From a virus (taxonomy: Duplodnaviria; Heunggongvirae; Uroviricota; Caudoviricetes), in IMG/VR virus record IMGVR_UViG_3300021399_000096: a stretch of DNA of 64,000 nucleotides. One strand, 5' to 3'. Position numbers and translations under genes: made by a program. The notes below the pieces were generated by a model. The model searched no databases. It saw only the letters and a program-made list of their open reading frames with translations, and was not told the origin of the DNA. Of the stretch, positions 2,993-57,486 are shown in pieces (the first letter of the stretch is position 1; the number at the start of each line of letters is the position of its first letter).

Positions 2993-3015
2993 TAATTGTT
3001 TTTAATAATTTATAA

Positions 3016-3050
3016 AAGACCCACTTAATAAAAGTGGGTCTTTATTTTTA
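3016..3050 (+). terminator. Rho-independent terminator.
   Basis: Perfect 11-bp stem aagacccactt / aagtgggtctt with loop aataa, followed by a T-rich tract. Confidence 0.7.
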
Positions 3051-3085
3051 ATAAATATATTGAAAAACAAGTAAATAAGATTATT

Positions 3086-5020
3086 ATGCAAAACTTTATT
3101 CCAGAAGAAGAAATACGAAGAGATTAGAAAATAGTTGATGATGGTTTTTATAATGAAGCATATTTAAGAGAAACTACTCCAATTGTTATAAAGAGAGAAA
3201 TTGGTCAGAAATATGGTCTTAACCCTAAGCAATGTTCAAAAGCAGAAACAATTGCACATGCAATATTATTATATTTAAGAACAATTAGAAATCAAAAAAC
3301 AATATTTACTTTAGATGATATTCATGATTTTTATAAATTGACTGACAATCTTGGTTCATATGACAAATTAAAACCATTTTTAGAATTAGAATCTAAATCA
3401 TTTATAGAATTTGTATTAAAGCACCAATATGATTATATTTTATCTAAATGTCCTGGAATTAAACCATACACATTAGATAATATAGATAAAATTACAATTA
3501 GCCGAGATCTCACTAATGGTTCTAGCAATGTTCGATTTTAGTTAGAACGATATAAAGCTATTAAAAAATATTATGATGAAACTTATGGAATAAAATAGAA
3601 TATAGCTAAAGAAACAAATAAATCTAAATATGATTTAGAAGTTTTATTTTCAGAAGAAACTTATGAAATTAGAGAATAGCTTGAAGAGATACTTGAAGAT
3701 TTTATAAATATGTGTTATGACACTTATGTATATTAGTCTCCTACACATATGAAAATATTACAATTATCTAAAAAATATAGAGAATTGCGTCGTGAAAAAA
3801 ATCCATATTACCATCCAAACCATATTCCAGATGAAGAAGAACAAAGATATATTAAATATAGTAATGCTTTATATCCTGTAACAGTTTTATATAATCATTT
3901 TGAGGATATTAATAAAAAAGAATAGAGAATAGAATACTCTATTAAATATTTTAATAAACAATTTAATGATTTAATTAATAAGAAAATTATTAGAACTTTA
4001 TTAGATAAGAATGTAAATATAGATGATATTAATATAAGTGAATTAAAGAAAGCTGATTTTGGATATTATTTTATTATTAATTATAGAAACGGAAAATTAT
4101 ATGCAAATTTTTTAATTTAGCCAGAGAGTTTAGATGTTTCAGATATGGATGAATACGTTAGAACAGCACATCATTTATTTCCAGAACATATTCATGGAGA
4201 TGCAATTAACTACGTGATGAAAGTAACAGTTAGACCTCTAAATAAAAGTTTAAATGAAGGTTTTGATTTTAATTAGATAAACTTAGCATTAGATGATTTT
4301 GATGATGAAGAACAAGTTCAACATGTAAAATCTAAACAAGTCTAGAATAGAGATTATACTAAAGAATATTTAGATTTGATGAATGCTGTTGTTGATTTAG
4401 GGCTTCCATCAGGTACTTTATGGTGCAAATATAATCTCGGTGTTAATCCAAATAAATTAAAATCTGCCAAAAAATGGTATGGTGATTTTTACGCATGGGG
4501 AGAAACAGAACCTAATAAATTAAAATATACATGGGATACATACACATTAGGAAATGAACAATTTGATTTATTTAAATATATGCGAGATAATTTTTATTCA
4601 AAATCTGGAAAAGCTGATAAATTATTAGCATTATTACCAGAAGATGATGCAGCTTATTAGAATATGCATATTGGCAATTATAAATTTCATATACCAACTA
4701 AAGAATAGTTTGAAGAACTAATATCTAATACAACTCATGAATATATTAAAAACTATAATGGGATTAATAAATTAAATGGGATGGCATTTATCAGTAAAAA
4801 TGGAAATACATTATTTTTACCGGGTAGTGGTATGATTGAGGAAAAATATTATGATAACCAATGCGGTTATTATTGGACATCGACTCTTGATGAAATTTCA
4901 TGTCATATGGCATTTAGATATTGGTTTAACCAAAATAGCATTTTTTATAGTTAGCGAAGAGACTATGAAGATCCAAGATATTATGGGTTTAATATCCGTC
5001 CGGTAATAAATTTAAGATAA
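3086..5020 (+). CDS. Large recoded protein of about 644 aa with about 12 in-frame TAG codons. It has a unique N-terminal region and a C-terminal FISUMP/DUF1566-like domain.
   Basis: A single frame is open from the ATG at 3086 to the TAA at 5018, apart from the TAGs. The motifs LGLPSGTLWCKYNLG, YGDFYAWGETE, YYWTSTL and GFNIRPV match the Fibrobacter-succinogenes-major-paralogous (DUF1566) domain. The ORF track shows only fragments 3338-3541 and 4376-4660. Confidence 0.65.
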
Positions 5021-5024
5021 AATT

Positions 5025-5798
5025 ATGAAAAAATATAAACAAATATTAGAAGCAATTAATAGAGGCATCTAGTTAGCACTAGATGATTTTGATGATGAAG
5101 AACCTATTATAAAAAATATTAAATCTAAACAAGTATAGAATAGAGACTATACTAAGGAATATTTAGATTTAATGAAAGAAGTTGTTGATTTAGGTTTGCC
5201 ATCAGGAACTTTATGGTGTAAATATAATCTTGGGTGTGATTGGAGGTTTTTAAATAAAGATCCTTATTATACTACATATTTAGATTGGTATGGTGATTAC
5301 TTTGCTTGGGGTGAAACAGAATTAGGGACAAAGCCAGAATATTCATGGGAAACATATAAATTTGGAAAAGAATTAACTAAATATAATAATAAAGATAATT
5401 TAAATACATTACTATCTGAAGATGATGCTGCGTATTAGAATAGTAATTTAAAGTTTTGCATACCAACACCTGAATAGTTTAATGAATTAATAAAAAATAC
5501 AATAAATAAACCAGTTGAAAAATATAGAAATGTATATTATTTAGATGGCTGGTTATTTATAGGGAAAAATGGTAATGAATTATTTTTTCCAGCATGTAAA
5601 AAATGTGGAGAAAAAGATGTAAATGAATATCCTACAAATGGAAATTATTGGACTAATACAGTTATTAATTCTAAAATTAATAATATGCAATATGGCATGA
5701 CATTAAATTTTAATACTAATAAATTAAAACCTGAAATTTTTTGTGCTTAGTGCGCTCGTTACAAAGGGCTTCCAATTCGTCCAGTAATAAATTTGTAA
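5025..5798 (+). CDS. Tandem paralog of the C-terminal half of the preceding gene: a FISUMP/DUF1566-like domain protein with 5 in-frame TAG codons.
   Basis: A single frame is open from the ATG at 5025 to the TAA at 5796. It carries LGLPSGTLWCKYNLG, GDYFAWGETE and GLPIRPVINL. Nucleotides 5087-5240 are a near-duplicate of 4293-4450. Confidence 0.65.
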
Positions 5799-5845
5799 AA
5801 ACAAAATTCTCTTTCATCATATAATTATTAACTAAATAATTAAAA

Positions 5846-7009
5846 ATGGAAGAGAATAATTTTTTAAAAATAGATTTTGATTCGTCAAGTTTGACAGCTG
5901 CTAATATAACTGAAGAACAATTTGAAGCTGGTATTCAAGAAAAAGTTCAGTTAATTCTACAAAAAGAATTTCCAGAAACTCGTCAAAAACAATATATTAA
6001 AAAGGAGACAACAGGAATTAATTTTGCTTGTCCTATTTGTCATGATTCTGCATTTGATCCAAGAAAGAAACGTGGGCATATTGCATTTAGAGGCCGTCAT
6101 GCAGGACTTTATACTTGTTTTAATAGTTGTGGATCTATGTCTCTAAAAAAGTTTTTTAAGTATTTCGGGACAGATCTTTCTTTGACAGATATAAATTATA
6201 TTTCAAATAATTATACTAATCCTGAAGCAAATTCTCAAGAACTTTCAAATAATATAACATCTAACATTATTAATAAAGAGGAAGCTTATAAATGGGCTAT
6301 AGACAGAAATTACATTAGGGATGTTTTAGGTTTGCAAGATATCGGGCGTGTAACAACACCAGTTGCATATAACTATTTAATTAATAGGTGTCAATATCAA
6401 AATCATGAGAGATTTTTATATTCAGACAAATATAATCAAATTCTTATATTGAATCTTGTTGATGACAGAGTTCTTGGAATGCAAATTAGAAATTTAACAC
6501 CAAGGCAAGGCCAACCTAAATATTTGACAATGACTATTGAAAAGATGCGTCAAACAATGCTTGGTGATAAAACACCAGTTCCAGAAACTATTCTCAAGCT
6601 CTCATTAATATTCAATATATTTAATGTTGATTTTGCACATACTTCATTTAAACCAATATTTGTGTGCGAAGGTCCATTTGATGCATTTTTATTACCAAAT
6701 TGTATAGCACTTGCTGGTGCTGGAAAAAACTTTGCAATGCAATTTCCATTTTGGTATATATTTGATAAAGATGATACTGGCAATGAACATGCAATGGATA
6801 AAATGAAACAGGGGTATAATGTTTTCTTATGGAGAAAATTTATGACAGAATTTAATATTCCGGAAATTAATCCATATATATCATCTGGAAATAAAAAGAA
6901 ATGGGATATAACAGATATTAAAAAGTATTTTAGAGATATAAAACTAAATCCACGAATAATATGGAGTAACTATTTTTCAAATAATTTATTAGATGCATTA
7001 AATGTTTAA
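5846..7009 (+). CDS. DNA primase, T4 gp61-like, with an N-terminal zinc ribbon and a TOPRIM domain.
   Basis: The CPICH...C motif forms the zinc ribbon. FVCEGPFDAFLL...DKDDTGNE gives the TOPRIM acidic residues. Confidence 0.6.
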   Translation: MEENNFLKIDFDSSSLTAANITEEQFEAGIQEKVQLILQKEFPETRQKQYIKKETTGINFACPICHDSAFDPRKKRGHIAFRGRHAGLYTCFNSCGSMSLKKFFKYFGTDLSLTDINYISNNYTNPEANSQELSNNITSNIINKEEAYKWAIDRNYIRDVLGLQDIGRVTTPVAYNYLINRCQYQNHERFLYSDKYNQILILNLVDDRVLGMQIRNLTPRQGQPKYLTMTIEKMRQTMLGDKTPVPETILKLSLIFNIFNVDFAHTSFKPIFVCEGPFDAFLLPNCIALAGAGKNFAMQFPFWYIFDKDDTGNEHAMDKMKQGYNVFLWRKFMTEFNIPEINPYISSGNKKKWDITDIKKYFRDIKLNPRIIWSNYFSNNLLDALNV

Positions 7010-10597: not shown

Positions 10598-11044
10598 TTA
10601 AATATCAATATTTATTAGTGTAGAATTAATACCATATTCTTCAAGTGTTGTAGTCCAATCACATTCTCTCCATTCATATGGAAATGTATACCAGCCTTTA
10701 TTTGCTACATATAAATTTAATTCATAATATTCACTAATTAATTTTTTTAATGAAGGAATAATACCGCATGGTTTATCATCACCATAATAATTACGTGTCA
10801 TAAAACAACTGGGGTGTTCTTGATGAATAATTTCTCCATTTTTAATAACATAAAGGTATGCTGCATCACATGATAAATGATCACTATACACAAAATATAT
10901 TCCATCTCCATTTTCAATAAGTTGTTTTTTAATATCATTTAATGAATCTCTTAATGAAGTTGTCTCATTCAATGCTTTCTTAACTTCTTTAGCCACTGAT
11001 GCCATAATGCTTTCATATAAAGCTTTTTTGCTATCTTTTTTCAT
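10598..11044 (-). CDS. Leader-family paralog: a small protein with a conserved N-terminal motif ending in LNE.
   Basis: The N-terminus MKKDSKKALYESIMASVAKEVKKALNE is shared with the genes at 13234, 13666 and 52695. The ORF is intact and ends in TAA. Confidence 0.55.
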   Translation of the reverse strand: MKKDSKKALYESIMASVAKEVKKALNETTSLRDSLNDIKKQLIENGDGIYFVYSDHLSCDAAYLYVIKNGEIIHQEHPSCFMTRNYYGDDKPCGIIPSLKKLISEYYELNLYVANKGWYTFPYEWRECDWTTTLEEYGINSTLINIDI

Positions 11045-12304: not shown

Positions 12305-13234
12305 TTATCTAAATGTTGTTTTCTTTCCGGAGTTAACTATAGATTCAATATAAGATTTATCATCTCTAGTTAATCTGTTAGTTGGAGATTCTGTAAAGCC
12401 CATATGCCATCCAAGCCATTGAACCAAATCTGCATACTGCTATCCATTATCATAATGTATATAATATTTAAAAGAATAGCGTTTTTCTTCAATATTTACA
12501 CTAATACCATGGTTTCTTAACCATTTGATATGATTTTCTGCTGCAGCCATTGGAGAAGCAAATTCTCCAGCATCATAATTATAAGGAGAATATACAAAAT
12601 CTGTTATAAAATCTCCAGATTTTTCTTCAACAGAAGTAATCTCTTTAAATTCACAGGTTCTTCTCAAAATCATATTAACATCCATTTGAATTTGAGCTTC
12701 AGAACGGGTTTCCCATTTCCCAGATTTATCAATTTCTGCACGAATTGCTTCTGGTGTTGCTGGAATTTCTCCATTATTAATTTTTTGAATTATTTCAAAT
12801 TTAACTCTCTGACGTGGTGTTTTAATTTTATCAATTTGAATATATTGTTTCATTATATTCTATTTGTTCTCATTAACAGAATCATTAACAGAATTCTTAT
12901 TAACTTTTTGAATTGAAATTCTAGGAGATTGCCCAAGAGAATTATCAATATCTAAAACATTTGAATTAACTAATAAAGAAATAACTTTAATAACTTCTTC
13001 ATGAGTTTTGCATGTTACTCTGATAGAGCCAGAACCATAATTGTCAAATGCTGGTAATTTAGAAGATAATGCATCTAATGTTTTCTTATTCATTCCGTCA
13101 CAACGAACTAAATAAATTTCGCCTGAAACTTCTTGGCTAACTGGAGCAATATCATCAACTTCATTCAAAGAACGTTTAACTTCTTTGGCAACTTGCTCCA
13201 TTATTCTATTATATAAATCAGAATTTTTTTGCAT
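12305..13234 (-). CDS. Leader-family paralog of about 309 aa with two in-frame TAG codons at 12860-12862 and 12440-12442.
   Basis: Track ORFs 12860-13234 and 12440-12853 lie in one frame and are separated by TAG plus two codons. The frame continues to the TAA at 12302-12304. The N-terminus MQKNSDLYNRIMEQVAKEVKRSLNEV matches the family leader. Confidence 0.55.
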
Positions 13235-13330: not shown

Positions 13331-13666
13331 TTAAAGATCATCTTTATCTATTGTTCTATAGCATAATGGATATAAAATAGCATTAATTGCAAAAATTGGA
13401 GATACATGATGATCCAAATATACTCCATCAGTAATAGCATTCAACATAACTTGTAACTATCTTTCTGGTAGATTTTCTTTTATTATTTTTGCAATATTTA
13501 ATCCAATTTCATTAATTTCATATCTTGAATCTGGAGATTTATCAATTTTCTATCCACGTTCATTTGTATAAACTTCTGGATATTCACCTTCATTCAATGC
13601 CTTTTTAACTTCTTTAGCAACAGAAGCCATAATGCTTTCATATAAAGCTTTTTTGTCTCTTTTCAT
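13331..13666 (-). CDS. Leader-family paralog of 111 aa with two in-frame TAG codons.
   Basis: Manual translation gives MKRDKKALYESIMASVAKEVKKALNEGEYPEV..., a frame that is open only if TAG is read as sense. The gene was missed by the ORF track. Confidence 0.5.
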
Positions 13667-17198: not shown

Positions 17199-18746
17199 AT
17201 GGCAGTTTATAAGAGCAAATTTATAGAAATTGATCCAGATACTTGTTCTAAAGAAGAACTTTATAATGCAATTAAAGAGTGTAAGGATCTTTCTGGATAT
17301 TATGAAACCAAACAGCTTGCAGTTAAAACATTTATTAATTCAGTATATGGAGCTTGCGCTAGTAAGTATTTCGTTGGGCATAATACGGCAGTTGCAGAAT
17401 CAATTACACTTCAAGGACAGGATTTGAATCACTATTCAGAAAACTGTGTCAATAAGTATTTTAGAGGAATTTTTCAATCACAAGAGGAATATAATAGAGT
17501 TATTTATGTTCCTTTATTCGAGTGGATGGAAAAATATGATATTGAAACCACTGATGAATTTTATGCTAAAACACCGGATAAACAATGGGTTTTAGTTAAA
17601 TTGCCATTAAGCAAAAATGAAATTAAAGATCAAGATAATTTGTCAAAAGAAATGAAGGCTTTACTTAAAAAAGTTTCGGTTAAAACCACTTTTGGCGAGT
17701 ATCTTGGAGCACCATATGAAAAAATAAAAGAATTTGAAATCAATAAAGGAAAGATTACTCAAAATGAACCACTTAATTCTTTGGCATTAAAAGCTAAGAA
17801 TCCATTAGATTCTAAAGAAAACCCATTTGCATATATGGGTAAAACAACATATTTGGAAGATGATCCAACATGTAGTTGTACGGTGAATGGGGATACTGAC
17901 TCCATTTATGTCGAGTTTGGGAGGGTTACTACGTTTTTAGGAATACATGATTTTAATAAGGCTACTCGTTTTGTTGTTGATATGTGGAATTATGGAATCG
18001 GACCATATATGGATAAAAAATATGACGAATATGCACAAAAATATAATTGTGATGAAAATATAGAAAATCTTGAACTTGAAAAAATTGCAGATACCGCAAT
18101 ATTAATAGCAAAAAAACATTATGCAATGTCTGAATGTTGGAAAGAACCAAATATATATTTAAATCCAGGTGAAGAAGTTGCATATAAAGGTCTTGAATTA
18201 GTTCAAGGATCTACACCTCCATTTGCAAGAAAATGCCAAGATGAATTTATGAAATATGTTATGAATTGGTATATAAATCATAATGAATCTCCGGAATTTG
18301 ATGAAATTTATTCATTACTCAAAAAATTCAAAGATGATTTTATTAAACAAAACCCGGAAGATATTTGTAAAAGTGTATCAATTTCTGATTATGACAAATT
18401 TATTCTTGATGATAAAAATCAATTAGTGATTGCTGATAAATGTCCTATTCATGTTAGAGCAGCTGGAATTTATAATTATATTTTGAATAATCCAAAGAAT
18501 AAAAAATATAAAATGAAATATAATTCAATAAAGACCCGTGATAAAGTTAAATTTTATAAAACAACAGATCCAAATTATCCTGTCTTTGGTTTTATTCCGG
18601 GCAAATATTCTTTAGAGTTTGCACTTCCAATGGATTATAATCAACAATTTGAAGATTTGGTTTTGAAACCATTAAATCGTGTTATTGAGATTTTAGGTTA
18701 TCAACCATTTACATCAGATTTATGTTATGTTTCATCATTATTTTAA
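17199..18746 (+). CDS. Family B DNA polymerase, C-terminal half (motif B, motif C, thumb). This is a separate gene of a split polymerase.
   Basis: KTFINSVYGACAS is motif B (KxxxNSxYG). VNGDTDSIYV is motif C (YGDTDS). Confidence 0.8.
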   Translation: MAVYKSKFIEIDPDTCSKEELYNAIKECKDLSGYYETKQLAVKTFINSVYGACASKYFVGHNTAVAESITLQGQDLNHYSENCVNKYFRGIFQSQEEYNRVIYVPLFEWMEKYDIETTDEFYAKTPDKQWVLVKLPLSKNEIKDQDNLSKEMKALLKKVSVKTTFGEYLGAPYEKIKEFEINKGKITQNEPLNSLALKAKNPLDSKENPFAYMGKTTYLEDDPTCSCTVNGDTDSIYVEFGRVTTFLGIHDFNKATRFVVDMWNYGIGPYMDKKYDEYAQKYNCDENIENLELEKIADTAILIAKKHYAMSECWKEPNIYLNPGEEVAYKGLELVQGSTPPFARKCQDEFMKYVMNWYINHNESPEFDEIYSLLKKFKDDFIKQNPEDICKSVSISDYDKFILDDKNQLVIADKCPIHVRAAGIYNYILNNPKNKKYKMKYNSIKTRDKVKFYKTTDPNYPVFGFIPGKYSLEFALPMDYNQQFEDLVLKPLNRVIEILGYQPFTSDLCYVSSLF

Positions 18747-18778: not shown

Positions 18779-20308
18779 ATGATAATTAGTAAAGAACAAA
18801 TAGATAGCAATGATTCTAATGGAAATCCAATAAAATTATTGGTTATTTCATATGTCAATAAAGAAGGAAAGATTTCATATTTGAAATGGCAAATTCCAGC
18901 AACAGAAATGTTTGAATGGGTTTATACAAATAGGGCTAATGCAGATAAACCATTTCCAGCATATGATGTGAATACTCGTCAACCTATTATTGATGAAGTT
19001 ACTGGACAACCAAAAATAGTACAATGGAAATCTTATGACAATAAATGGGTTAGACGAAATCCAACTATTAAAAATCTTTCAGAAGGAAGATTGAATGAAA
19101 TTATTAATAGTTGGGGGAAAATTGCAGATCCTTTATTTGAAGCTAATACTCCAATAACATGGTTTTGTGATATTGAGGTAGATGTTTCTCCAGAAGGATT
19201 TCCGGATCCAGATTCTGCATCTATGCCAATTAATACAATAGCAATAACAAAATTTCCAAAAACTATTGTTTTTGGACGTAAGCATTTATCTGAAAAAGAA
19301 ATAAATGGTATTCAAGAAAATCTTAGAAATTATTCAGATTTAACAAAAGATTATGAATTTGAATATAGATATTATGAAACTGAATATCAAATGATTGAAG
19401 CCTTTATAGAATTTATAAAGGATATTCCTGCTATAACTGGATGGAACTTTTTAGGATATGACTGGAAATATATTAAAAATCGTTGTGAAAATATTGGAAT
19501 AACGGATTTAATTAAAATTTGTCCAACACAAGCATATACACGATTTAAATTAAATAGAAAAAATGTAATAGATGTTCAAGTTCCATTGCATAAAATCATA
19601 TATGACTATATGTTAGTTTATAGACAATGGGACAGATCAGTAGAAATTAAAGAAAGTGATACATTGGACTGGGTTTCTAACAAAGTTCTTGGAATTAAGA
19701 AAGTTGAACATGAATGGGGGTTTGAGGAATTTTATAGAGATCATTATATGGAATATGTTTTCTATAATGCTGTTGATACTATATTGGTTGAAAAAATCGA
19801 TGAGAAACTTAAAACCGCACAAATTTGGTATATGTTGGCAAGTGAACTTCGTGTATCATTAAATGATGCTTTTTCAACTATTTTGCCAACTGAAGTTGTT
19901 ATGACTAACTTTATTTATCCACAATATAAAGTGGTTCCAAAAAAGATTAATAATAACGATGATGTTGATACAGATTATGAAGGAGCTTTTGTTTGGCCAA
20001 CACAACCTGGAGTTTACAAATATATTGGTGGGCTAGATTTCGCTTCACTTTATCCTTCAACGATGATCCAATTTCAAATATCGCCAGAATCATTTTTATT
20101 TAAAGATCCAACATATGTTCCAAAAGATAATGAAATCAAAACAATTTCTGGGGCAGTTTATCAAAAAAGAGCTGATGCTATTCTTCCAGCTATTCTTAGA
20201 CACTATTTTGCTAAACGTAAAGCAGCTAAGGCAGATCGAAAAAGTGTAGATGTAGATATGGAAGTATTAATTAAAAAATATGAAGAACGATTTGGAAAAT
20301 TTGAATAA
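18779..20308 (+). CDS. Family B DNA polymerase, N-terminal half (3'-5' exonuclease domain plus motif A). It is encoded downstream of the C-terminal half.
   Basis: FCDIEVD is the Exo I motif. YIGGLDFASLYPSTMIQ is motif A (DxxSLYPS). The C-terminus ILPAILRHYFAKRK aligns with the T4 gp43 segment that immediately precedes motif B. Confidence 0.8.
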   Translation: MIISKEQIDSNDSNGNPIKLLVISYVNKEGKISYLKWQIPATEMFEWVYTNRANADKPFPAYDVNTRQPIIDEVTGQPKIVQWKSYDNKWVRRNPTIKNLSEGRLNEIINSWGKIADPLFEANTPITWFCDIEVDVSPEGFPDPDSASMPINTIAITKFPKTIVFGRKHLSEKEINGIQENLRNYSDLTKDYEFEYRYYETEYQMIEAFIEFIKDIPAITGWNFLGYDWKYIKNRCENIGITDLIKICPTQAYTRFKLNRKNVIDVQVPLHKIIYDYMLVYRQWDRSVEIKESDTLDWVSNKVLGIKKVEHEWGFEEFYRDHYMEYVFYNAVDTILVEKIDEKLKTAQIWYMLASELRVSLNDAFSTILPTEVVMTNFIYPQYKVVPKKINNNDDVDTDYEGAFVWPTQPGVYKYIGGLDFASLYPSTMIQFQISPESFLFKDPTYVPKDNEIKTISGAVYQKRADAILPAILRHYFAKRKAAKADRKSVDVDMEVLIKKYEERFGKFE

Positions 20309-25267: not shown

Positions 25268-27424
25268 ATGACTATACTAGAAGAAACATTAGAAGAATTA
25301 AAAGCAGGTAAAATTTCGCAACGCCAATTTATTGGATATTGTAAATCAGATAATAACATTTATGGAGAAATTATAGAAAAAACTAAATTCCTAGATCAAT
25401 ATAATCCAGATATTCTTGAACGTCTTTATTATATAATTAATAATATTAATGAAGTAGTTAAATGTAAATATTGTAATAATAAAGCAATATGGACAGGACG
25501 TATAAATAATGGGTATAAAGATATTTGTAATTCTAAAGAATGTCGTACAAAACAATTAGCAGATGTTCATAAAGGAAAAACAATTATATCAAATAATAGA
25601 GATAATGATTTTATTATTAAACAATCAGCAATAGAAGAAGTTAATGATGATATTATAAAAGACATATTGAAATATGATAAATTTTTAGATTTAATTACAA
25701 ATGAAAATATTTTAAAATATCTCGATAATAGATTTAGTGATAGCTCATCTAGATTAGAATCTCTTCAACGTATTAGATTTGGAATAGAAGAAAAACCAAA
25801 ATGTCCAACATGTGGAAAACCTGTAGTGTGGGTAGGTAAAAAATCTAAAATGTTTACAACTTATTGTTGTAATGAATGCCGAGCACAAAATAAAGAAACT
25901 CATAAGAAAATGAAACAAACCCAACTAGAAAATTGGGGAAATGAATGTTGTTATCAATCAGAAAAATATAAACAAAAAATGCGTGAGAAATATGGTGTTG
26001 ATTATTATTGGCAACGTTCAGATATAAAAGAAAAAAGAAAAGTAGGTTTAATAGAACATTATGGCACAACAAAATTATATCAAGTAGAAGAAATTAGAAA
26101 TAAAATAATTGCTACTAATAGAGAAAAATTTGGATATGATAATCCAATGCAAAATCCAGAAATTAAACAGAAAACTTATGAGGCTATCAAAAAATCAATG
26201 AGATTTGGAACATCTAATGCTGAAGATAATGTATATAATTGGTTAATTGAGCTTGGATATAATGTAGAAAGATTTGTAAGATCTGAAAAATTCCCATTTA
26301 ATGTGGATTTTTATTTAAAAGAATATGATTTATATATTGAATATCAAGGTTCTCAATATCATCATGGATATTCTTTTCTCGGAACAAAAGATGATTTTAT
26401 TGAATTAGAAAATTTAAAGCAAAAGAATGAAAAATCTATATTAGAAAGTGGTAAAACTAAATCACAATATCAATCTATTATAGATACTTGGTCAATATAT
26501 GATGTAAATAAAAGAAATTATGCAAAAACCCATAATATAAAATTTTTGGAAATTTATAAATGTAATTCAAAAGAAGATTTACAATACCAATTAAATTTTT
26601 ATTTATGTTGTTTATATAATGAAAATATATTAAATTATAATAAAGAATTATTACAGAATGAATTTAATTTTTATAAAAAATTAAAAACTGAAAATTTATC
26701 AAATTCTGTAGGAAAATATCATATGATTATTAAGCAGTTCCAATGCAATAATTTCTTTAAACATGAAATAGAATTATTTGTTAATGATCCAATCATACGT
26801 AGAAAACTTATTCAAAACCGTGTAAAATATCTTAATAAAGAAGAAATACAACTTACACCAGAAGAAATTTTAACCGGCTTTAAAAAATCTGGGATTTATT
26901 ATGGTTATTCTCATTTTAATCCAAAATGGACAAATTGGTTTATTAACAAATATAATATTAAAACTATATATGATCCTTGTGGTGGATGGGGGCATCACTT
27001 ATTAGGAATGCTTTCATGTAATAAAATAATATATAATGATTTTTCACAATCAACCGTTGAAGGAGTTCAACAAATAAAAGATTATTTTAATATAGATAAC
27101 TTAGAAGTTCATTATGGAGATGGAACTGAATATATTCCAGAAGAGGTTGATGGATGGTTTATGTGTCCGCCTTATTATAATTTAGAACATTATGAATGCG
27201 GTGATTTTAAGTCATTAGAAGAATATAAAATATTCTTAAATAAAATTATTAAACTATGGCAAAATAGTTCATCTAGAGTCTTTGGAGTTATATTGAGAGA
27301 AGATTTAATAGATTATATAGATATTAAACCAAATGAAATACGTGATATGAAAATTCATAAAACATATTTAAATGGTGGAAAGAAAAACTTAGATGAAAAA
27401 TTTTATATTTTCAAAAAATAGTGA
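25268..27424 (+). CDS. Large multidomain protein: N-terminal Cys4 zinc ribbons, a central PD-(D/E)xK-like nuclease-fold segment, and a C-terminal SAM-dependent methyltransferase-like region.
   Basis: CKYCNN...CNSKEC and CPTCG...CCNECR are the zinc ribbons. VDFYLKEYDLYIEYQGSQYH is the nuclease-like segment. YDPCGGWGHHLL resembles MTase motif I. FMCPPYY resembles MTase motif IV, (D/N/S)PPY-like. The gene ends in tandem TAG-TGA. Confidence 0.4.
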
Positions 27425-27457
27425 GGAAATTCGAAAGAGTTTCCTCTTTTATTTTTT
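27423..27457 (+). terminator. Rho-independent terminator, nearly identical to the hairpin at 25127.
   Basis: gaggaaattcgaaagagtttcctc followed by ttttatttttt. Confidence 0.65.
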
Positions 27458-27514
27458 AACTTCTATTTTTTAGTTTGAAATAATTTTATTAATTTTGCAT
27501 CGTAATTAAAAATA
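27458..27514 (+). promoter_or_regulatory. Conserved promoter-like element, copy 1 of 6.
   Basis: aacttctattttttagtttgaaataattttattaattttgcatcgtaattaaaaataa lies about 10 nt upstream of the ATG at 27523. It contains a TAatTTTG element. Confidence 0.5.
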
Positions 27515-27522
27515 ATATAGTT

Positions 27523-32454: not shown

Positions 32455-32484
32455 ACACTACCTAAAATTAGGTAGTGTTTTTTG
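32455..32484 (+). terminator. Rho-independent terminator.
   Basis: Stem acactacct / aggtagtgt followed by tttttt. Confidence 0.65.
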
Positions 32485-32494
32485 ATAATTTATT

Positions 32495-32552
32495 AACTTC
32501 TATTTTTTAATTTGAATAAAAAGTATTAATTTTGCATTGTAATTAAAAATAA
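32495..32552 (+). promoter_or_regulatory. Conserved promoter-like element, copy 2 of 6.
   Basis: aacttctattttttaatttgaataaaaagtattaattttgcattgtaattaaaaataa lies upstream of the ATG at 32561. Confidence 0.5.
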
Positions 32553-32560
32553 TATCAACT

Positions 32561-37750: not shown

Positions 37751-37772
37751 AATTATAATAATTAAAATAATA

Positions 37773-37830
37773 AACTTCTATTTTTTAATTTAAATAAAAA
37801 GTATTATTTTTGCAACATAAAAATTATAAA
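37773..37830 (+). promoter_or_regulatory. Conserved promoter-like element, copy 3 of 6 (more divergent).
   Basis: aacttctattttttaatttaaataaaaagtattatttttgcaacataaaaatta lies upstream of the ATG at 37843. Confidence 0.45.
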
Positions 37831-37842
37831 AAATTATAAAAT

Positions 37843-41236: not shown

Positions 41237-42333
41237 AAATGTTAAATTCAAATATTAATGTTAAAGAACTTCGAAAGCGATTTGAATATTTAAAAAATTG
41301 TATCCAATTTGAAGATAAAAAGAATCAAGAAAATGAGCTGAATATGCGAATGCACGATCCAGCTTTTTGGAATGATGCAAAAATGGCAGAAAAAATTTCG
41401 AAAGATTGGAAAAATTTATCTAAATTGATATGTGATATTAATTTAACTGATGATGACATTACATATTTAGAATTATTATCTGATGAAGAATTATCTCAAG
41501 ACTGGGCAAAAACATTATATAATACATGTATAGAAACAATTTCTAAATATGAAATGCAAACCATGCTAAATAAGGACGAGGATAAGATGCCGGCAGTTTT
41601 AAAAATTGTGGCTGGAGCCGGTGGAACTGAAGCACAAGATTGGGCTGAAATGTTAATGCGGATGTATCTATCTTATTTTGCAAATCATAATTTTACAGGA
41701 GAAATAACAAACTATCAAAAAGGTGATACGGCAGGAATTAAAACTGTTTCATTTAATGTATATGGAGATTTTGCATATGGGTATCTTAAAAGCGAAACTG
41801 GAATACACCGATTAGTAAGAGTAAGTCCATATAATGCACAAGGAAAACGTATGACAAGTTTTGCAAGTGTATTTGTGTGTCCATTGGTAGATGACTCCAT
41901 TGAAGTTAATATTAATCCTGCAAATATTACAATGGATACATTTAGATCTTCTGGCGCAGGCGGACAGAATGTTAATAAAGTTGAATCTGGAGTAAGACTT
42001 CATTATAAGTTTATTAATCTATTAACAGGACAGGAAGATGAATTAGTAGCAGAAAGTACAGAATCTAGAGATCAACCTAAAAACAGAGAAATTGCAATGC
42101 AACATTTGCGCAGTCAATTGTATGAATTAGAACTTGAAAAACGACGTCAAATTCAAGCAGAAATAGAAAATAAAAAGATGCCAATTGGCTGGGGTGCACA
42201 AATTAGAAGTTATGTTTTTGATGATAAACGTGTAAAAGATCATAGAACAAATTATCAGACATCTGATGTAAGTTCAGTAATGAATGGGCATATTGATGAA
42301 TTTATTAAAGCATATTTAATGGAAACTAATTAA
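41227..42333 (+). CDS. prfB: Peptide chain release factor 2. The gene is uninterrupted, with no programmed frameshift site.
   Basis: The GGQ motif is in SSGAGGQNVNKVESGVRL. The RF2-type tripeptide region LVRVSPYNAQGKRMTSFASVFV carries an SPY variant of SPF. AGAGGTEAQDWAEMLMRMY and GWGAQIRSYVFDD are also present. Confidence 0.85.
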   Translation: MGMKMLNSNINVKELRKRFEYLKNCIQFEDKKNQENELNMRMHDPAFWNDAKMAEKISKDWKNLSKLICDINLTDDDITYLELLSDEELSQDWAKTLYNTCIETISKYEMQTMLNKDEDKMPAVLKIVAGAGGTEAQDWAEMLMRMYLSYFANHNFTGEITNYQKGDTAGIKTVSFNVYGDFAYGYLKSETGIHRLVRVSPYNAQGKRMTSFASVFVCPLVDDSIEVNINPANITMDTFRSSGAGGQNVNKVESGVRLHYKFINLLTGQEDELVAESTESRDQPKNREIAMQHLRSQLYELELEKRRQIQAEIENKKMPIGWGAQIRSYVFDDKRVKDHRTNYQTSDVSSVMNGHIDEFIKAYLMETN

Positions 42334-42390
42334 GCTTCTATTTTTTAATTTAAGAAAAATGTATTAAATTTGCATCGAAATTAAAAATAA
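42334..42390 (+). promoter_or_regulatory. Conserved promoter-like element, copy 4 of 6.
   Basis: agcttctattttttaatttaagaaaaatgtattaaatttgcatcgaaattaaaaataa lies upstream of the ATG at 42400. Confidence 0.5.
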
Positions 42391-42399
42391 AGTAATTTT

Positions 42400-48975: not shown

Positions 48976-49004
48976 AAGGGTGGGTAATTCCACCTTTTAT
49001 TTTT
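48976..49004 (+). terminator. Rho-independent terminator.
   Basis: Stem aagggtgg / ccaccttt with loop gtaatt, followed by tttatttttt. Confidence 0.55.
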
Positions 49005-49062
49005 AACTTCTATTTTTTAATTTAAGAAAAAAGTATTAATTTTGCATCGTAATTAAAAAAGA
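49005..49062 (+). promoter_or_regulatory. Conserved promoter-like element, copy 6 of 6.
   Basis: aacttctattttttaatttaagaaaaaagtattaattttgcatcgtaattaaaaaaga lies upstream of the ATG at 49090. Confidence 0.5.
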
Positions 49063-49089
49063 TAGTATTAACATTTAAATATTAAAAGT

Positions 49090-51502: not shown

Positions 51503-51536
51503 AAGGTTGAAAAATTAATTCCAACCTTTGTTTTTT
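51503..51536. terminator. Bidirectional terminator hairpin between convergent genes.
   Basis: Stem aaggttg / caacctt flanked by an A-run upstream and a T-run downstream. Confidence 0.55.
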
Positions 51537-52695
51537 AATCTTCTTCATCAAAACACCATTTTAATGTATGAACATCAGATGTTGCATTAAATAGCCGTTT
51601 ATAATCATCAAAATCATATAATGTAATTTTGCTTTTATAAAAACGTCCAACAAAGTTTCCAGCTTTTTGTCTATATACATAATATAATTCTACTTCAGAA
51701 TTATCAAAAAGCTCAAAAGTTACTTTAGCCTAATCTATAGTTCCCTGAGGAACCATTTTATATCTATATCTTTGAGTTCTATATTCTTTTACTGGTGCAG
51801 AATCAATTAATTCAATTTTATAAGAATTAATTTTATTATTCTAATGTATATATTTTTTAAGATTTTCTGGGAATATTTCAGAATGTGCGGCTTCATTAAA
51901 TCCACCCTTTCCGTCATATTCTTGAAGATCATCTATTAATTCTTTTATATCTTCAGGAATATTATATGTTGCATATTTTCTTCTATATGCTTCAAGCTGT
52001 GCATCATTTAATATATTCAACTCATATATTCTATCTTTAAATGCTTTAACTGCTTCTTTCCAACCTAATGTATTTGCAATAATATATCTGGCAACTATTT
52101 TATTATTATCTTTGCATGAATTTGCAACTCTTTCTGGATTTGAATGTCTATTTTTATAATCAATCATCTTCATCCAGTCTCTTACAGTTGGGGCATATTC
52201 ATCAGTATTAGTTGCATCAACTTCCATATCAAATTTTCTTTCGGCATCTGCTAGTGCAAGTTGTAAATCATCATCCTTTTTAAAATTATATTCAACTTGT
52301 ATTTGCTGTATTGTTTGAATTTTAGAAGATATAATTTTAAATTCTTTATGTTTTTTAATATATTCTTGAATTTTCTATAAATCTTCTCTAATATTATAAT
52401 AACCAAACTAAGGAGAGATTGTTAGTCTTATAGGTTGATTTGAATATACCGAACCAATATAAAGAGTCAATTTGCCATAAGGTTCATATGTAAAACTATA
52501 AAATCTATTTGTTAAATTTGGAATAGATGTAAATTTTTTATAAATCCATTCCTGTATAGTCATTTTTAAAAATTGTTTAAGATCTGCTATATCTATATTA
52601 TGTTCAGGCGTGGCAGTTCTATACTCATTAAGAGCGGTTTTTACTTGCTTAGCAACTGACCTCATTATGTTTTCATATAATATATTTTTATTCAT
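51535..52695 (-). CDS. Leader-family paralog of about 386 aa with four in-frame TAG codons at 52408, 52375, 51841 and 51730.
   Basis: Track ORFs 52408-52695 and 51841-52227 lie in one frame. The whole interval 51538-52695 has no TAA or TGA in that frame. The N-terminus MNKNILYENIMRSVAKQVKTALNEY matches the family leader. The C-terminus reads ...HTLKWCFDEED. Confidence 0.55.
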
Positions 52696-53121: not shown

Positions 53122-54222
53122 ATGAATTATAATTATCCAAATATAGAAGAATCAAGAAACAAAATAAATGATTTGTTTAATGGAAAATCTATAGTATATT
53201 TTCCAATTGTTTCTATGCAAAACAGAGAAACTGGAAATTATAAATTAGATCAAGATGGAAATGTTAATAGATTTATTACATTTTTTTCAAAATGCAACAC
53301 AATGAAACAATTATATATTACACTTCCATCTAATAAAGAAAGCTGCAAATATTATACAGATTTTACTAAATCTAAAAATAATATTACAACAATTTATAAT
53401 ACTAATTTTGGACAACATGCATTAGATCAAAGAGTAAATAAAGATATTATTACTGATCAATATAATGCAAGTAAAGAAATAATAGATCATTCTGATATTA
53501 TAATAGTTGAAAGTCAAGGATTGGCAAATTTGATATTGTCTAATAATCAAAATAAAACCATTATATATTGGTGCCCAGTTTCAGTAACTAATAAAAAATC
53601 TAGATCATTTATTGAGCAATATCGAGAAATAGATAAAGAACTGTTTAATAAAGTAAATTATATAATTGTTGTATCTCCAGAACAATATGATTATTTGATA
53701 GAATTAGGAATCAATTCAGAAAAAATATTATATTATTATGAATTGATGGATCGAAGTCTCCCAGTTTTTAATCGCTATAATCATATAGATACAATATCAT
53801 CTAAGAAAATAATATATCTTCCATTCAGACTTACAGATGAAGGTTACAAATCTGAACAAATTTTAGATATTTTAGAACAATTATCTATTAAATACCCAAA
53901 TAAATTTGTTATTGTTTATTCGGATCCAAATAATTCAAAATTCGAGAGAGTAACAAAAAATCCAAATTTATATTTTAAAATATCTTCAGACAGAGATACA
54001 TATTATTCATATTTGGATTCCAAAAATGTATTGATTCCATATTTTGAAGATATTAATTATGTTAATCATGCATCAATTCATGAGTTTAATAATGAGCAAT
54101 CTAAATGTACAGTTCTATTAAACAATACTGAATATCATGCATATAATATAAAACGAAAAGATATATTATATATTGACTTCGAAGACCTTTATAAAAATTT
54201 AGAGAAATTTATAAATGAATAA
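53122..54222 (+). CDS. Hypothetical protein, possibly a glycosyltransferase-like Rossmann-fold protein.
   Basis: Intact ORF. It alternates beta-alpha patterns, but no diagnostic motif is seen. Confidence 0.35.
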   Translation: MNYNYPNIEESRNKINDLFNGKSIVYFPIVSMQNRETGNYKLDQDGNVNRFITFFSKCNTMKQLYITLPSNKESCKYYTDFTKSKNNITTIYNTNFGQHALDQRVNKDIITDQYNASKEIIDHSDIIIVESQGLANLILSNNQNKTIIYWCPVSVTNKKSRSFIEQYREIDKELFNKVNYIIVVSPEQYDYLIELGINSEKILYYYELMDRSLPVFNRYNHIDTISSKKIIYLPFRLTDEGYKSEQILDILEQLSIKYPNKFVIVYSDPNNSKFERVTKNPNLYFKISSDRDTYYSYLDSKNVLIPYFEDINYVNHASIHEFNNEQSKCTVLLNNTEYHAYNIKRKDILYIDFEDLYKNLEKFINE

Positions 54223-55246
54223 GAATAAAATAATTTGTGGACCGTGTTCAGCAGAAACTAGAGAACAAATCTTAGAAACTGCTATGTAGCTGACATCTTT
54301 AGGATATTATAATTTTAGAGCTGGTGTATGGAAGCCAAGAACTAAACCAGGCGGTTTTGAAGGTCATGGCGAAGAAGCATTAAAATGGTTGGTAGAAGCC
54401 AGAAAACTATATAATATTATTCCATATGTTGAAGTTGCAAATCCATCTCATGTTGAATTATGTAAAAAATATGGAATTAATCATTTGTGGGTTGGTGCAA
54501 GAACATCATCAGATCCATTTGCCACTCAAGAACTTGCTAATTCATTAGTAGATTTTGATTGTGAAGTTTTAGTTAAAAATCCGGTTTCTGCTGATTTAGA
54601 ATTATGGATTGGTGCAATTCAAAGAATCAAAAATGCCGGTGTAAAAACAGTTAAAGCAATTCATAGAGGATTTTCTGATTATAATGAAAAGATTTATAGA
54701 AATAGTCCAATATGGACAATTCCTCTTGAATTAAAATCAAGAATGCCTGAATTAGAAATATATTGTGATCCATCACATATATCTGGAAATTCTCAATTGA
54801 TTCCAAGTTTAATAAATCAAGCATATAATTATGGATTTGATGGATTTATTATTGAATCTCATTGTGATCCAAAAGCAGCTTGGACTGATGCAAAACAACA
54901 ATTGGTTCCATCTGATATGAATACATTAATTTCAGCATTGGAAGAAAAACCAGAAATTTCTTTGGATGAGTATGATAAATTATTATTAAGTTCATATCGT
55001 GAAACTATTAATAATATTGATACGCAACTAATTAAATTCTTTAGTGAGCGAATGAAAATTAGTAAAGAAATTGGAGAATTGAAAGGTGAACATAATATGC
55101 CAGCTTTACAATATGACAGATGGAAAGAATTGTTATCAAAAAATATTGAGTTAGGTAAAACATATAATTTAGATGAAGAATTTATTTCAAAGATTTGGAA
55201 TATTATTCATGAGGAATCTATTAAAATTCAATCAACACAAAAATAA
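54215..55246 (+). CDS. 3-deoxy-7-phosphoheptulonate (DAHP) synthase, KDO8PS-like class I-beta, fused to a C-terminal chorismate mutase. It has one in-frame TAG at 54287-54289.
   Basis: The N-terminus MNKNKIICGPCSAETREQILETAM[TAG]LTSLG...PRTKPGGFEGHGEEALKWL lies upstream of track ORF 54389-55246 in the same frame. IAGPCS-type motif, CDPSH, and a C-terminal AroQ-class CM segment LIKFFSERMKISKEIGELK are present. Confidence 0.7.
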
Positions 55247-57470: not shown

Positions 57471-57486
57471 AATAATTAATTAGAAC

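What the first reader, a model, noticed from the sequence alone, without database searches (positions are those of the whole stretch)
3086..5798. Tandem FISUMP/DUF1566-domain genes that are the most heavily TAG-recoded genes in the window
The gene at 3086-5020 has about 12 in-frame TAGs in 644 codons. The gene at 5025-5798 has 5 in-frame TAGs in 257 codons. Both end in a domain with the hallmarks of the Fibrobacter-succinogenes-major-paralogous/DUF1566 family: GLPSGTLW, AWGE, YWTST and GFxxRPV. The second gene is a duplicate of the first gene's C-terminal half, with about 80% nucleotide identity over 150 nt around position 4293 versus 5087. Such domains are typical of cell-surface proteins of Bacteroidetes and Fibrobacter and of Legionella Lcl. 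In a phage they are candidates for receptor-binding or host-surface-interacting proteins. The high TAG density makes them invisible to standard annotation and suggests tight dependence on the recoding machinery.
Basis: partly seen in the sequence, partly recalled or inferred. Interest (0 to 1): 0.6.

Follow-up and report, generated by a model that had tools for sequence, protein, structure and literature searches.

The report
TAG-rich phage lectin-like gene pair
Two adjacent late genes of a large gut phage that reads the TAG stop codon as glutamine encode lectin-like binding domains; they belong to a big undescribed family of phage proteins that share a 50-residue front end and may help the phage stick to its targets.

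Summary
Gene 1 (3086-5020) has 12 in-frame TAGs in 644 codons and gene 2 (5025-5798) has 5 in 257. Together they hold half of the window's in-frame TAGs in 4.7% of its codons. TAG aligns with ordinary Gln codons in homologues, and no gene ends in TAG.

New findings:
- Gene 2 belongs to a large multi-copy family, with up to about 23 genes per 380-kb phage contig. A conserved 50-residue N-terminal leader carries either this lectin-like domain or a DUF285 repeat domain.
- Gene 1 fuses a clade-specific 397-residue helical protein to one such module. That protein has no tail-fibre or depolymerase fold.
- The pair forms its own unit behind a terminator and a conserved motif, TAATAAATATATTG, related to the motif upstream of structural genes.

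Best reading: late, TAG-gated, modular binding proteins, probably attached to the virion. This is not shown.

The parts
3015..3043 (+). Intrinsic-terminator-like hairpin (12-bp stem followed by a T run) that closes the upstream gp32-like ssb gene
   Evidence: Equivalent hairpins lie at the same place in the orthologous loci L007 and L008.
3049..3062 (+). Promoter-like motif TAATAAATATATTG, 23 nt before the gene 1 start codon. Inferred late-class promoter of the gene 1-gene 2 unit
   Evidence: The window holds 2 exact matches and 3 with one mismatch. Four of the five lie just upstream of correctly oriented genes that carry a conserved N-terminal leader. The motif is identical upstream of gene 1 orthologues in L007 and L008. 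It also lies upstream of family and DUF285 genes in many other contigs. It is related to the AAATAAATATAAAAA motif upstream of sheath, portal and gp13 genes.
3086..5020 (+). Gene 1: 644 codons, 12 in-frame TAG (Gln), TAA stop
3086..4276 (+). Gene 1 N-terminal domain (codons 1-397). Helical over residues 1-307 with a small beta subdomain at 315-381. Clade-specific with no known relatives; holds 8 of the 12 TAGs
4277..4387 (+). Leader-derived segment inside gene 1 (codons 398-434: INLALDDFDDEEQVQHVKSKQVQNRDYTKEYLDLMNA). It equals residues 16-52 of the family leader
4388..5017 (+). Gene 1 C-terminal C-type-lectin-like (Lcl_C/FISUMP-related) domain, codons 435-644
5025..5798 (+). Gene 2: 257 codons, 5 in-frame TAG (Gln), TAA stop; starts 4 nt after gene 1 ends
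5025..5180 (+). Gene 2 N-terminal leader (codons 1-52): amphipathic helix, acidic LALDDFDDEE motif, linker, short helix. TAG at codons 16 and 38
5181..5795 (+). Gene 2 C-type-lectin-like domain (codons 53-257). Residues 191-250 are the hypervariable part of the family
5820..5832 (+). Motif TATAATTATTAAC ahead of the primase gene (5846-7009). It is of the type found upstream of gp32 and primase genes and marks the downstream edge of the unit
   Evidence: L008 gp32 and primase carry TATACAATTATTAAG.

Best explanation
The two genes form one late transcription unit of a large T4-related, TAG=Gln-recoded phage of Bacteroidota. Each ends in a C-type-lectin-like ligand-binding domain, remotely related to Lcl_C/DUF1566 and FISUMP.

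Gene 2 is a standard member of a large phage paralogue family. Family members have a conserved 50-residue N-terminal leader followed by a swappable binding domain, either this lectin-like domain or DUF285 repeats. The leader consists of an amphipathic helix, an acidic LDDFDDEE motif, a linker and a short helix. Gene 1 is a clade-specific 397-residue helical protein fused to such a module.

I infer three things:
1. The leader, especially its acidic motif, attaches the binding domains to a virion component. The gene 1 N-domain may be that component, because it is found fused to the module.
2. The hypervariable C-terminal third of the lectin-like domain binds host-surface or gut glycans. The proteins would then act as accessory adhesins or receptor-binding modules.
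3. The many TAG codons, often already at codon 14-16, keep the proteins untranslated until the phage has switched the cell to TAG read-through.

Shown: the gene structure, TAG=Gln, the fold and remote homology, the modular family, and the conserved promoter-like motif. Inferred: late timing, virion attachment, glycan binding and gating.
For: TAG=Gln:
- TAG positions align with CAA/CAG-encoded Gln in homologues, and the reverse.
- At the conserved columns AAYQN and KEQFEEL, TAG alternates almost only with Gln.
- No window gene ends in TAG: 60 use TAA and 12 use TGA.

Fold and homology:
- AF2 model pLDDT 80.6.
- hhalign E 7.5e-31 to a Bacteroidales lipoprotein that hits Lcl_C at E 2.3e-8.

Modular family:
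- A leader-only profile finds 270 cluster representatives. The leader is at residue 1 in nearly all of the 150 listed; a few start 2-30 residues in, and P0277 carries it internally at residues 100-135.
- Cargo is the lectin-like domain or DUF285 (E down to 1e-108).
- One 380-kb contig carries 11 loci with at least 23 leader-bearing genes, often in tandem arrays.
- Variability is concentrated in residues 191-250, while the leader is nearly invariant.
- A Lak phage homologue has an analogous leader, with TAG at the same two Gln positions.

Late unit:
- A terminator is followed by TAATAAATATATTG, a motif conserved in orthologous loci and upstream of other family genes.
- The motif is related to the one upstream of sheath, portal and gp13 genes. 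The gp32 and primase genes carry a different motif.
- In the window, TAGs occur in the major head and sheath genes but not in ssb, primase, SbcCD or DNA polymerase. This matches the pattern described by Borges et al. (10.1101/2021.08.26.457843).

Heavy TAG use is a family trait:
- 128 TAG against 209 CAA+CAG in 35 members.
- 16 and 9 TAGs in the L008 orthologues.
- Codon 16 is TAG in 38 of 48 Gln-coded leaders.

There is no signal peptide or membrane segment, so any extracellular role needs the virion or lysis.
Against: - There is no proteomic, structural or expression data. Virion association, late timing and ligand are all inferred.
- A 50-residue leader with a disordered acidic linker is unlike known receptor-binding-protein anchor domains, and there is no fibre shaft.
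- Twenty or more paralogues per genome would need many docking sites.
- The genes lie among replication genes, not tail genes.
- MCP and sheath have far fewer TAGs (3-8% of Gln codons against about 50%). So 'late structural' alone does not explain the density.
- Conserved non-structural genes such as PhoH are also TAG-rich in relatives.
- No suppressor tRNA lies in this window.
Confidence: 0.4

Rival explanations
1. The leader is a capsid-targeting sequence of the T4 internal-protein type. The family would be a polymorphic set of proteins packed inside the very large head. The prohead protease would cut them after the invariant I-L-E near residue 9. They would then be injected with the DNA to bind host factors such as defence proteins.
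For: - The leader start MK(N/T)Y..ILE|A resembles the T4 capsid-targeting sequence MKTYQEFIAE|A and the (L/I)xE cleavage rule of T4 gp21. Both are cited from my own knowledge of T4 biology.
- L8, E9 and A10 are invariant in 46 members.
- All 6 genes with a conserved N-terminal leader, or fused to one, in the window have [IL]xE within residues 3-15, against 12 of 66 other genes. The Lak homologue has LIE|S.
- The phage has a T4-type portal, gp13, terminase and major head protein.
- The only shared part of otherwise different proteins is the N-terminus, as in T4 internal proteins.
- Late-type promoter.
Against: - Conservation runs far past the putative cut site. G14, I15, A18, L19, D20 and D21 are invariant, and residues 16-50 are strongly conserved.
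- Fusions such as gene 1 and P0277 drop residues 1-15 but keep 16-50.
- The proteins are acidic (pI 5.8-6.0), unlike the basic T4 internal proteins.
- The cargo domains are adhesin-type.
- [IL]xE is a weak motif, with an 18% background.
Confidence: 0.25
2. The proteins are soluble late proteins that are not part of the virion. Examples would be lectins released at lysis that mask receptors or bind debris or mucus, or cytoplasmic binders that act in the lysis phase. The TAG load would exist because early expression is harmful.
For: - TAG density is much higher than in MCP or sheath. It resembles the strongest bias that Borges et al. report, which is for lysis-related genes rather than structural ones.
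- A prophage of Bacteroidales carries the same domain on an exported lipoprotein next to lysis genes.
- One relative is fused to a Pol-beta-type nucleotidyltransferase, a cytoplasmic kind of domain.
Against: - There is no membrane segment, signal peptide or catalytic domain.
- A nearly invariant leader shared by more than 270 clusters argues for a specific partner.
- There is no link to holin, endolysin or spanin genes in the window.
Confidence: 0.15
3. The high TAG density is not a regulatory device. It would be the mutational equilibrium reached by fast-evolving, frequently duplicated genes in a genome where TAG is a free synonym of CAA/CAG.
For: - The family is highly divergent: paralogues are about 50% identical and the C-terminal third is hypervariable.
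- TAG and CAA interchange freely at conserved Gln columns.
- TAG and CAA have the same G+C content.
Against: - Slowly evolving genes such as PhoH are also TAG-rich in relatives, while other variable genes are not.
- Replication genes have none at all.
- TAG is 79% of Gln codons at leader codon 16, against 38% overall.
- TAG-rich genes share a particular upstream motif.
Confidence: 0.2
4. The genes are targets of a diversity-generating retroelement, like Mtd of Bordetella phage BPP-1. The variable C-terminal third would be the mutagenised region.
Against: In 64 kb, no template-repeat copy of either 3' region was found. The only repeat involving these genes is the leader region. No reverse transcriptase was noticed among the genes that were scanned. 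Variation between paralogues includes many indels.
Confidence: 0.03

Closest known systems
Lcl C-terminal domain (Pfam PF07603 Lcl_C, formerly DUF1566; structure 8q4e) of the Legionella collagen-like adhesin
   Different: No direct Pfam hit. The domain is about 205 residues with large insertions, against 117 in the Pfam profile. There is no collagen-like stalk and no secretion signal. It is phage-encoded, behind a phage-specific leader.
Fibrobacter succinogenes major paralogous domain (PF09603 / FISUMP)
   Same: Sub-threshold hits in 6 of 46 family members (best E 0.0083) and in the intermediate lipoprotein (E 0.0026). Also a multi-copy paralogous family.
   Different: Below threshold everywhere. 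FISUMP proteins are exported bacterial proteins, whereas these have no signal peptide.
C-terminal adhesin-type domains of Bacteroidales surface lipoproteins (e.g. L005 2122-3645)
   Same: Closest sequence relatives outside phages: 35% identity over the whole domain, hhalign E 7.5e-31. The likely host phylum is the same.
   Different: The bacterial proteins have a lipoprotein signal and a long N-terminal stalk. The phage proteins have the 50-residue leader instead.
Phage and predator receptor-binding tips with a C-type-lectin fold: Mtd of Bordetella phage BPP-1 (1yu0) and the Bdellovibrio fibre tip Bd2740 (8oks)
   Different: Sequence identity is 6-11%. There is no retroelement here and no fibre or pyramid-forming N-terminal part. 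Trimer formation is untested.
T4 internal proteins with a capsid-targeting sequence, and T2-type gp38 adhesins (compared from my own knowledge)
   Same: In both, unrelated or variable cargo shares only a conserved N-terminal part. gp38 is also about 260 residues, with a conserved N-terminal attachment part and a variable C-terminal receptor-recognition part.
   Different: No sequence similarity was tested or found. The leader is five times longer than the T4 targeting sequence, and the proteins are acidic.
Preferentially recoded late and lysis gene families of stop-codon-recoded phages (Borges et al., 10.1101/2021.08.26.457843)
   Same: In-frame recoded stops are concentrated in a few late genes and absent from replication genes.
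   Different: This family is not among those named in the passages I read, which list spanin, tail tube, an intron endonuclease and transmembrane proteins. In Lak itself replication genes are said to be mostly recoded, unlike here.

Membership tests
Pfam Lcl_C (PF07603, DUF1566) | Match to the family HMM at or above the gathering score | tested here: not met
   No hit at E<=1 for either window protein. 4 of 46 family members hit, best E 0.052.
Pfam Lcl_C (PF07603, DUF1566) | Homology shown through an intermediate sequence or profile | tested here: met
   The C-domain profile matches the L005 lipoprotein at hhalign probability 99.9%, E 7.5e-31. That protein hits Lcl_C at E 2.3e-8, 34.8 bits against a cut-off of 34.9.
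Pfam Lcl_C (PF07603, DUF1566) | Fold of the solved Lcl C-terminal domain | tested here: met
Fib_succ_major (PF09603 / FISUMP) | Match to the family HMM at or above the gathering score | tested here: not met
   No Pfam or NCBIfam hit for the window proteins. 6 of 46 members hit, best E 0.0083.
Fib_succ_major (PF09603 / FISUMP) | Exported or lipoprotein context | tested here: not met
   No hydrophobic segment (maximum Kyte-Doolittle 19-residue window below 1.0). The N-terminus is acidic and helical.
C-type-lectin-like fold superfamily | Characteristic alpha/beta fold | tested here: met
C-type-lectin-like fold superfamily | Calcium and sugar-binding motif (EPN/QPD type) | not tested
   No residue-level superposition was available.
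TAG-to-Gln recoded phage genes (genetic code 15) | In-frame TAGs align with Gln in homologues, and TAG is not used as a stop | tested here: met
TAG-to-Gln recoded phage genes (genetic code 15) | Phage-encoded suppressor tRNA(CUA) or other code-change genes | tested here: inconclusive
   No tRNA in the 64-kb window. The rest of the genome was not available.
DGR variable proteins | Template/variable repeat pair and a reverse transcriptase nearby | tested here: not met
   No repeat of the 3' regions in the window.
Tail fibre or depolymerase (gene 1 N-terminal 397 residues) | Beta-helix, fibre or other known receptor-binding-protein fold | tested here: not met
T4-type capsid-targeted internal proteins | N-terminal (L/I)xE protease site within a short conserved targeting sequence | tested here: inconclusive
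   The motif is present in all 6 genes of the window that carry or are fused to a conserved N-terminal leader, against an 18% background. Conservation extends far beyond it.
T4-type capsid-targeted internal proteins | Cleavage by the prohead protease and presence inside heads | not testable with these tools
   Needs virion proteomics.

The most novel reading that the evidence does not exclude
The 50-residue leader is a general virion-incorporation signal of a clade of huge TAG-recoded gut phages. It would load each particle, on its surface or inside the head, with a polymorphic set of 10-25 different binding proteins (lectin-like, DUF285 repeat and others). Their synthesis would be locked by early in-frame TAG codons until the code switch. 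The gene 1 N-domain would be the hub they dock to, as the fusion suggests.
Probability: 0.25. Interest if true: 0.75.

Novelty: new variant of a known kind. Interest (0 to 1): 0.5.

Why it matters
Huge recoded gut phages are uncultured, and most of their genes have no assigned role. This work defines one of their largest paralogue families as 'shared leader plus exchangeable binding domain'. It ties the family to a conserved promoter-like motif and to the highest TAG load seen here.

If the leader is a docking or packaging signal, three things follow:
- It gives a handle on how these phages diversify what they bind to.
- It gives a tag that could direct foreign proteins into such virions.
- It gives a concrete gene set for testing the idea that stop-codon recoding times late gene expression.

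The closest non-phage relatives are Bacteroidales surface lipoproteins, which supports a Bacteroidota host.

Tried and rejected
- Direct family searches of both proteins (Pfam, NCBIfam, PHROGs) gave nothing.
- A PDB sequence search with the family profile, and another with the Bacteroidales intermediate, gave nothing meaningful.
- Foldseek against the PDB gave nothing. The AlphaFold-database library was not available.
- Megablast of 25 kb against GenBank phages gave no match. tblastn found only Lak phages, and only for the domain, not the leader.
- DGR target was rejected: no template repeat.
- Pseudogene remnant was rejected: full-length homologues and conserved synteny.
- A conserved RNA or DNA hairpin at 5066-5085 was rejected. 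It is a by-product of the codons ATC TAG ... CTA GAT and is not conserved in other members.
- Gene conversion as the cause of leader conservation is not supported. Identical-codon use at identical residues is 77% in the leader and 69% in the rest.
- A profile search for distant relatives of the gene 1 N-domain returned the same 26 clusters.
- Jug phages were considered as the source. They are reported to use the standard code.
- Literature searches found no description of this family or leader.
Full report
**Observation.**
The window is 28% G+C and has no tRNA gene. Read in frame, 3086-5020 has 644 sense codons with 12 internal TAGs. Read in frame, 5025-5798 has 257 codons with 5 internal TAGs. 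Both end in TAA, and no other stop codon interrupts them.

I compared the 72 plausible genes that appear when TAG is read through. These two have the highest TAG density, 18.6 and 19.5 per 1000 codons. Only the small gene 13331-13666(-) comes close, at 18.0. The two genes use TAG 17 times, CAA 16 times and CAG once. The other 70 genes use TAG 17, CAA 542 and CAG 68 times (Fisher p about 2e-15). Thus 4.7% of the codons hold half of the in-frame TAGs.

The duplication is real. An ungapped stretch of 121 nt is 87% identical (4320-4440 against 5113-5233). The proteins align from gene 1 residue 398 to the end.

**TAG is Gln.**
No window gene ends in TAG; 60 end in TAA and 12 in TGA. In homologous genes from other contigs, the TAG positions of the window genes carry CAA/CAG-encoded Gln, and the reverse also holds. 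I aligned 32 family members with TAG masked. At the two best-conserved Gln columns (AAYQN and KEQFEEL), 29 of 32 and 30 of 32 members carry either TAG or an ordinary Gln codon. Public protein sets already hold near-identical products, differing by one or two residues, translated with Gln at every TAG position (P0001, P0121).

**The C-terminal domain.**
Neither protein hits any Pfam, NCBIfam or PHROG model at E<=1. Scanning 46 family members one by one gives only sub-threshold hits.

Two further lines establish remote homology:
- A scan of 185,579 species genomes with the domain profile found three Bacteroidales loci. One encodes a 507-residue lipoprotein. Its last 213 residues align with the phage domain profile over the full length (hhalign probability 99.9%, E 7.5e-31, 35% identity). 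That lipoprotein hits Lcl_C at E 2.3e-8 (34.8 bits, cut-off 34.9) and Fib_succ_major at E 0.0026.

The domain is therefore a divergent member of the Lcl_C/FISUMP branch of the C-type-lectin-like fold. It is not a member of either Pfam family by their own thresholds.

**A modular family with a shared leader.**
Gene 2 has 1773 database relatives at E<=0.001. The 120 best listed are mostly 245-287 residues long and about 50% identical, none with a Pfam annotation. All share an almost invariant N-terminal 50 residues: MKNYNKILEAVNRGIQLALDDFDDEEQVQNIKSKQVQNRDYTKEYLDLM. M1, L8, E9, A10, G14, I15, A18, L19, D20 and D21 are invariant in 46 sequences. The model shows a helix at 2-23, a disordered acidic stretch and a short helix at 42-50 before the domain.

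Column entropy is 0.3-0.9 bits in the leader and 2.5-2.9 bits in residues 191-250. That variable stretch is the last third of the lectin-like domain. From my own knowledge, this is where the binding surface lies in C-type-lectin-fold variable proteins such as Mtd.

The same leader heads proteins whose body is not lectin-like but DUF285 (BspA-type repeats). A leader-only profile searched against 1.84 billion representatives finds 270 clusters. The leader is at residue 1 in nearly all of the 150 listed; a few start 2-30 residues in, and P0277 carries it internally at residues 100-135. Pfam confirms DUF285 in seven of ten sampled non-lectin members (E down to 4e-108). One relative is fused to a Pol-beta-type nucleotidyltransferase.

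In IMG/VR the family is dispersed and often in tandem arrays. One 380-kb contig has 11 loci with at least 23 leader-bearing genes. A 204-kb contig has 8 loci and a 263-kb contig has 7. Lak-A1 has a 252-residue homologue with an analogous leader (MSLLYNKLIESIKTAIYESLFDDIDDD) and TAG at the same two Gln positions. No hit to the leader was seen in GenBank phage records.

**Gene 1 is a fusion.**
Its first 397 residues have only 26 homologue clusters, with either a single-sequence or a profile query. Most of these are 636-665 residues long and have the same two-part architecture. Three are stand-alone proteins of 393-408 residues.

Synteny is conserved. In a 204-kb contig (L008) the order is gp32, terminator, motif, gene 1 orthologue, gene 2 orthologue, primase, tail sheath. 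A more distant 113-kb contig (L007) has only the stand-alone 393-residue protein at that position and no lectin module. So a family member was fused to a resident gene. It lost leader residues 1-15 and kept 16-52.

**Expression signals.**
The upstream gene (1877-2992) is a gp32-type ssb. The downstream genes are a primase (5846-7009) and a 1102-residue tail sheath. SbcCD, a split DNA polymerase and the major head protein follow.

After ssb comes a 12-bp terminator hairpin (3015-3043) and then TAATAAATATATTG (3049-3062). The window holds 2 exact copies of this 14-mer and 3 with one mismatch. Four of the five lie just upstream of correctly oriented genes. The other three genes belong to a second family with its own conserved N-terminal leader (...ALYESIMASVAKEVKKALNE), and two of those three carry in-frame TAGs.

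The motif is letter-for-letter conserved upstream of the gene 1 orthologues in L007 and L008, although the proteins are only 45-85% identical. It sits 0-25 nt before the start codon of the first gene of many family and DUF285 units in other contigs. Sheath, portal and gp13 genes carry the related AAATAAATATAAAAA. The gp32 and primase genes carry a different motif, TATA(C)AATTATTAAG, which also precedes the window's primase (5820-5832).

Five TAG-free operons in the window are preceded by a 77-nt repeat. From my own knowledge, this repeat contains a Bacteroidota-type TAnnTTTG element. I infer that gene 1 and gene 2 are one late-class unit inserted between two replication genes.

In the window, TAG occurs in the head and sheath genes (3-8% of Gln codons). 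It does not occur in ssb, primase, SbcCD or DNA polymerase. This is the pattern Borges et al. describe for recoded phages.

Heavy TAG use is a trait of the family:
- 38% of Gln codons are TAG in 35 IMG/VR members.
- The L008 orthologues carry 16 and 9 TAGs.
- At leader codon 16, TAG is used in 38 of 48 Gln-coded cases. Translation without suppression would then stop after 15 residues.

**Mechanism.**
I commit to the following, at about 0.4 confidence.
- These are late, TAG-gated, modular binding proteins.
- The lectin-like domain, through its hypervariable last third, is the ligand-binding part.
- The leader, above all the LDDFDDEE core that survives even in fusions, attaches the module to a virion component.
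- Because the gene 1 N-domain is found fused to such a module, it is a candidate for that component.

The adhesin-type relatives of the domain support an external, adhesive role. These are Lcl, the Bdellovibrio fibre tip, Mtd and the Bacteroidales surface lipoproteins. The alternative DUF285 cargo points the same way. The proteins have no signal peptide or membrane segment and are acidic (pI 5.8-6.0), so they can reach the outside only on the particle or at lysis.

The main rival, at about 0.25, is that the first ten residues are a T4-style capsid-targeting sequence cut after I-L-E. The family would then be packed into the head and injected. In its favour: the resemblance to MKTYQEFIAE|A, the T4-type head genes, and [IL]xE near the N-terminus in all 6 such genes of the window (those that carry or are fused to a conserved N-terminal leader), against 18% of the others. 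Against it: conservation extends to residue 50, residues 16-50 are retained in fusions that lack the N-terminus, and the proteins are acidic.

Lesser rivals are non-virion late lectins (0.15) and DGR targets (0.03; no template repeat). On a separate axis, TAG enrichment could arise by drift rather than selection (0.2).

**Comparison and novelty.**
Several elements are already known: the C-type-lectin-like and Lcl_C/FISUMP domains, phage receptor-binding proteins with this fold, and the concentration of recoded stops in late genes. Four things appear to be undescribed in the libraries and papers I could search:
- the leader and its use on interchangeable binding domains;
- the size and genome-wide spread of the family in huge recoded phages;
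- its dedicated promoter-like motif;
- its extreme TAG load.

I rate this a new variant of a known kind, of moderate interest. The functional claims remain inferences.

**Limits.**
- There is no expression or proteomic evidence.
- The promoter class is inferred from motif sharing.
- The genome outside the window, including the suppressor tRNA and the prohead protease, was not seen.

Noticed in passing
window 10598-11044(-), 12305-13234(-), 13331-13666(-), 51535-52695(-): A second paralogue family with its own conserved N-terminal leader (M..ALYESIMASVAKEVKKALNE) and unrelated bodies. It appears as repeat family D2. Three of the four genes have TAATAAATATATTG (at most 1 mismatch) just upstream, and three carry in-frame TAGs (2, 2 and 4). 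No PHROG hit.
   Followed up: partly
window 27441-27517, 32478-32554, 37756-37832, 42316-42392, 48988-49064: Five copies of a 77-nt intergenic repeat, each ahead of a TAG-free operon. The repeat contains TTTG and TAnnTTTG elements like Bacteroidota promoters. It is probably the early or middle promoter class, and it is a host clue.
   Followed up: partly
window 17199-18746 and 18779-20308: The family B DNA polymerase is split into two genes in permuted order. The upstream gene matches the C-terminal part of the profile (positions 574-841) and the downstream gene matches the N-terminal exonuclease part (111-488).
   Followed up: no
window 25268-27424: A 718-residue gene directly after the major head protein gene. 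It has a homing-endonuclease-like region and one in-frame TAG, and is preceded by the AAATAAATATAA motif.
   Followed up: no
window 54215-55246 and 57430-58473: Possible aromatic amino-acid pathway genes. The first is DAHP-synthase-like by PHROG hit. The second looks like 3-dehydroquinate synthase from its sequence only, which is unverified. Each has one in-frame TAG.
   Followed up: no
L002 10804-11367, and upstream of the family gene in L020: A TnsA-like endonuclease gene (4 in-frame TAGs) sits between or just before family members in two different contigs. It may be linked to the spread of the family.
   Followed up: no
L007 2623-3336(-) and 3410-4474(-); L008 2691-3428(-): PhoH-like and DUF7487 genes near the orthologous loci are also very TAG-rich (5-13 TAG, up to 72% of Gln codons). 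They have AAATAAATAT(A/T)(A/T)TGA-type motifs upstream. High TAG load may therefore track a promoter subclass rather than structural function.
   Followed up: partly
L064 500-3091: In a Bacteroidales prophage-like contig, the same lectin-like domain ends an 863-residue exported lipoprotein. The gene lies next to a putative endolysin and an integrase. This phage context for the domain is different, and it uses the standard code.
   Followed up: no
window 5066-5085: A perfect 7-bp inverted repeat (CATCTAG...CTAGATG) lies inside the gene 2 leader and includes the TAG at codon 16. It is not conserved in other family members, so it is probably a by-product of codon choice.
   Followed up: yes
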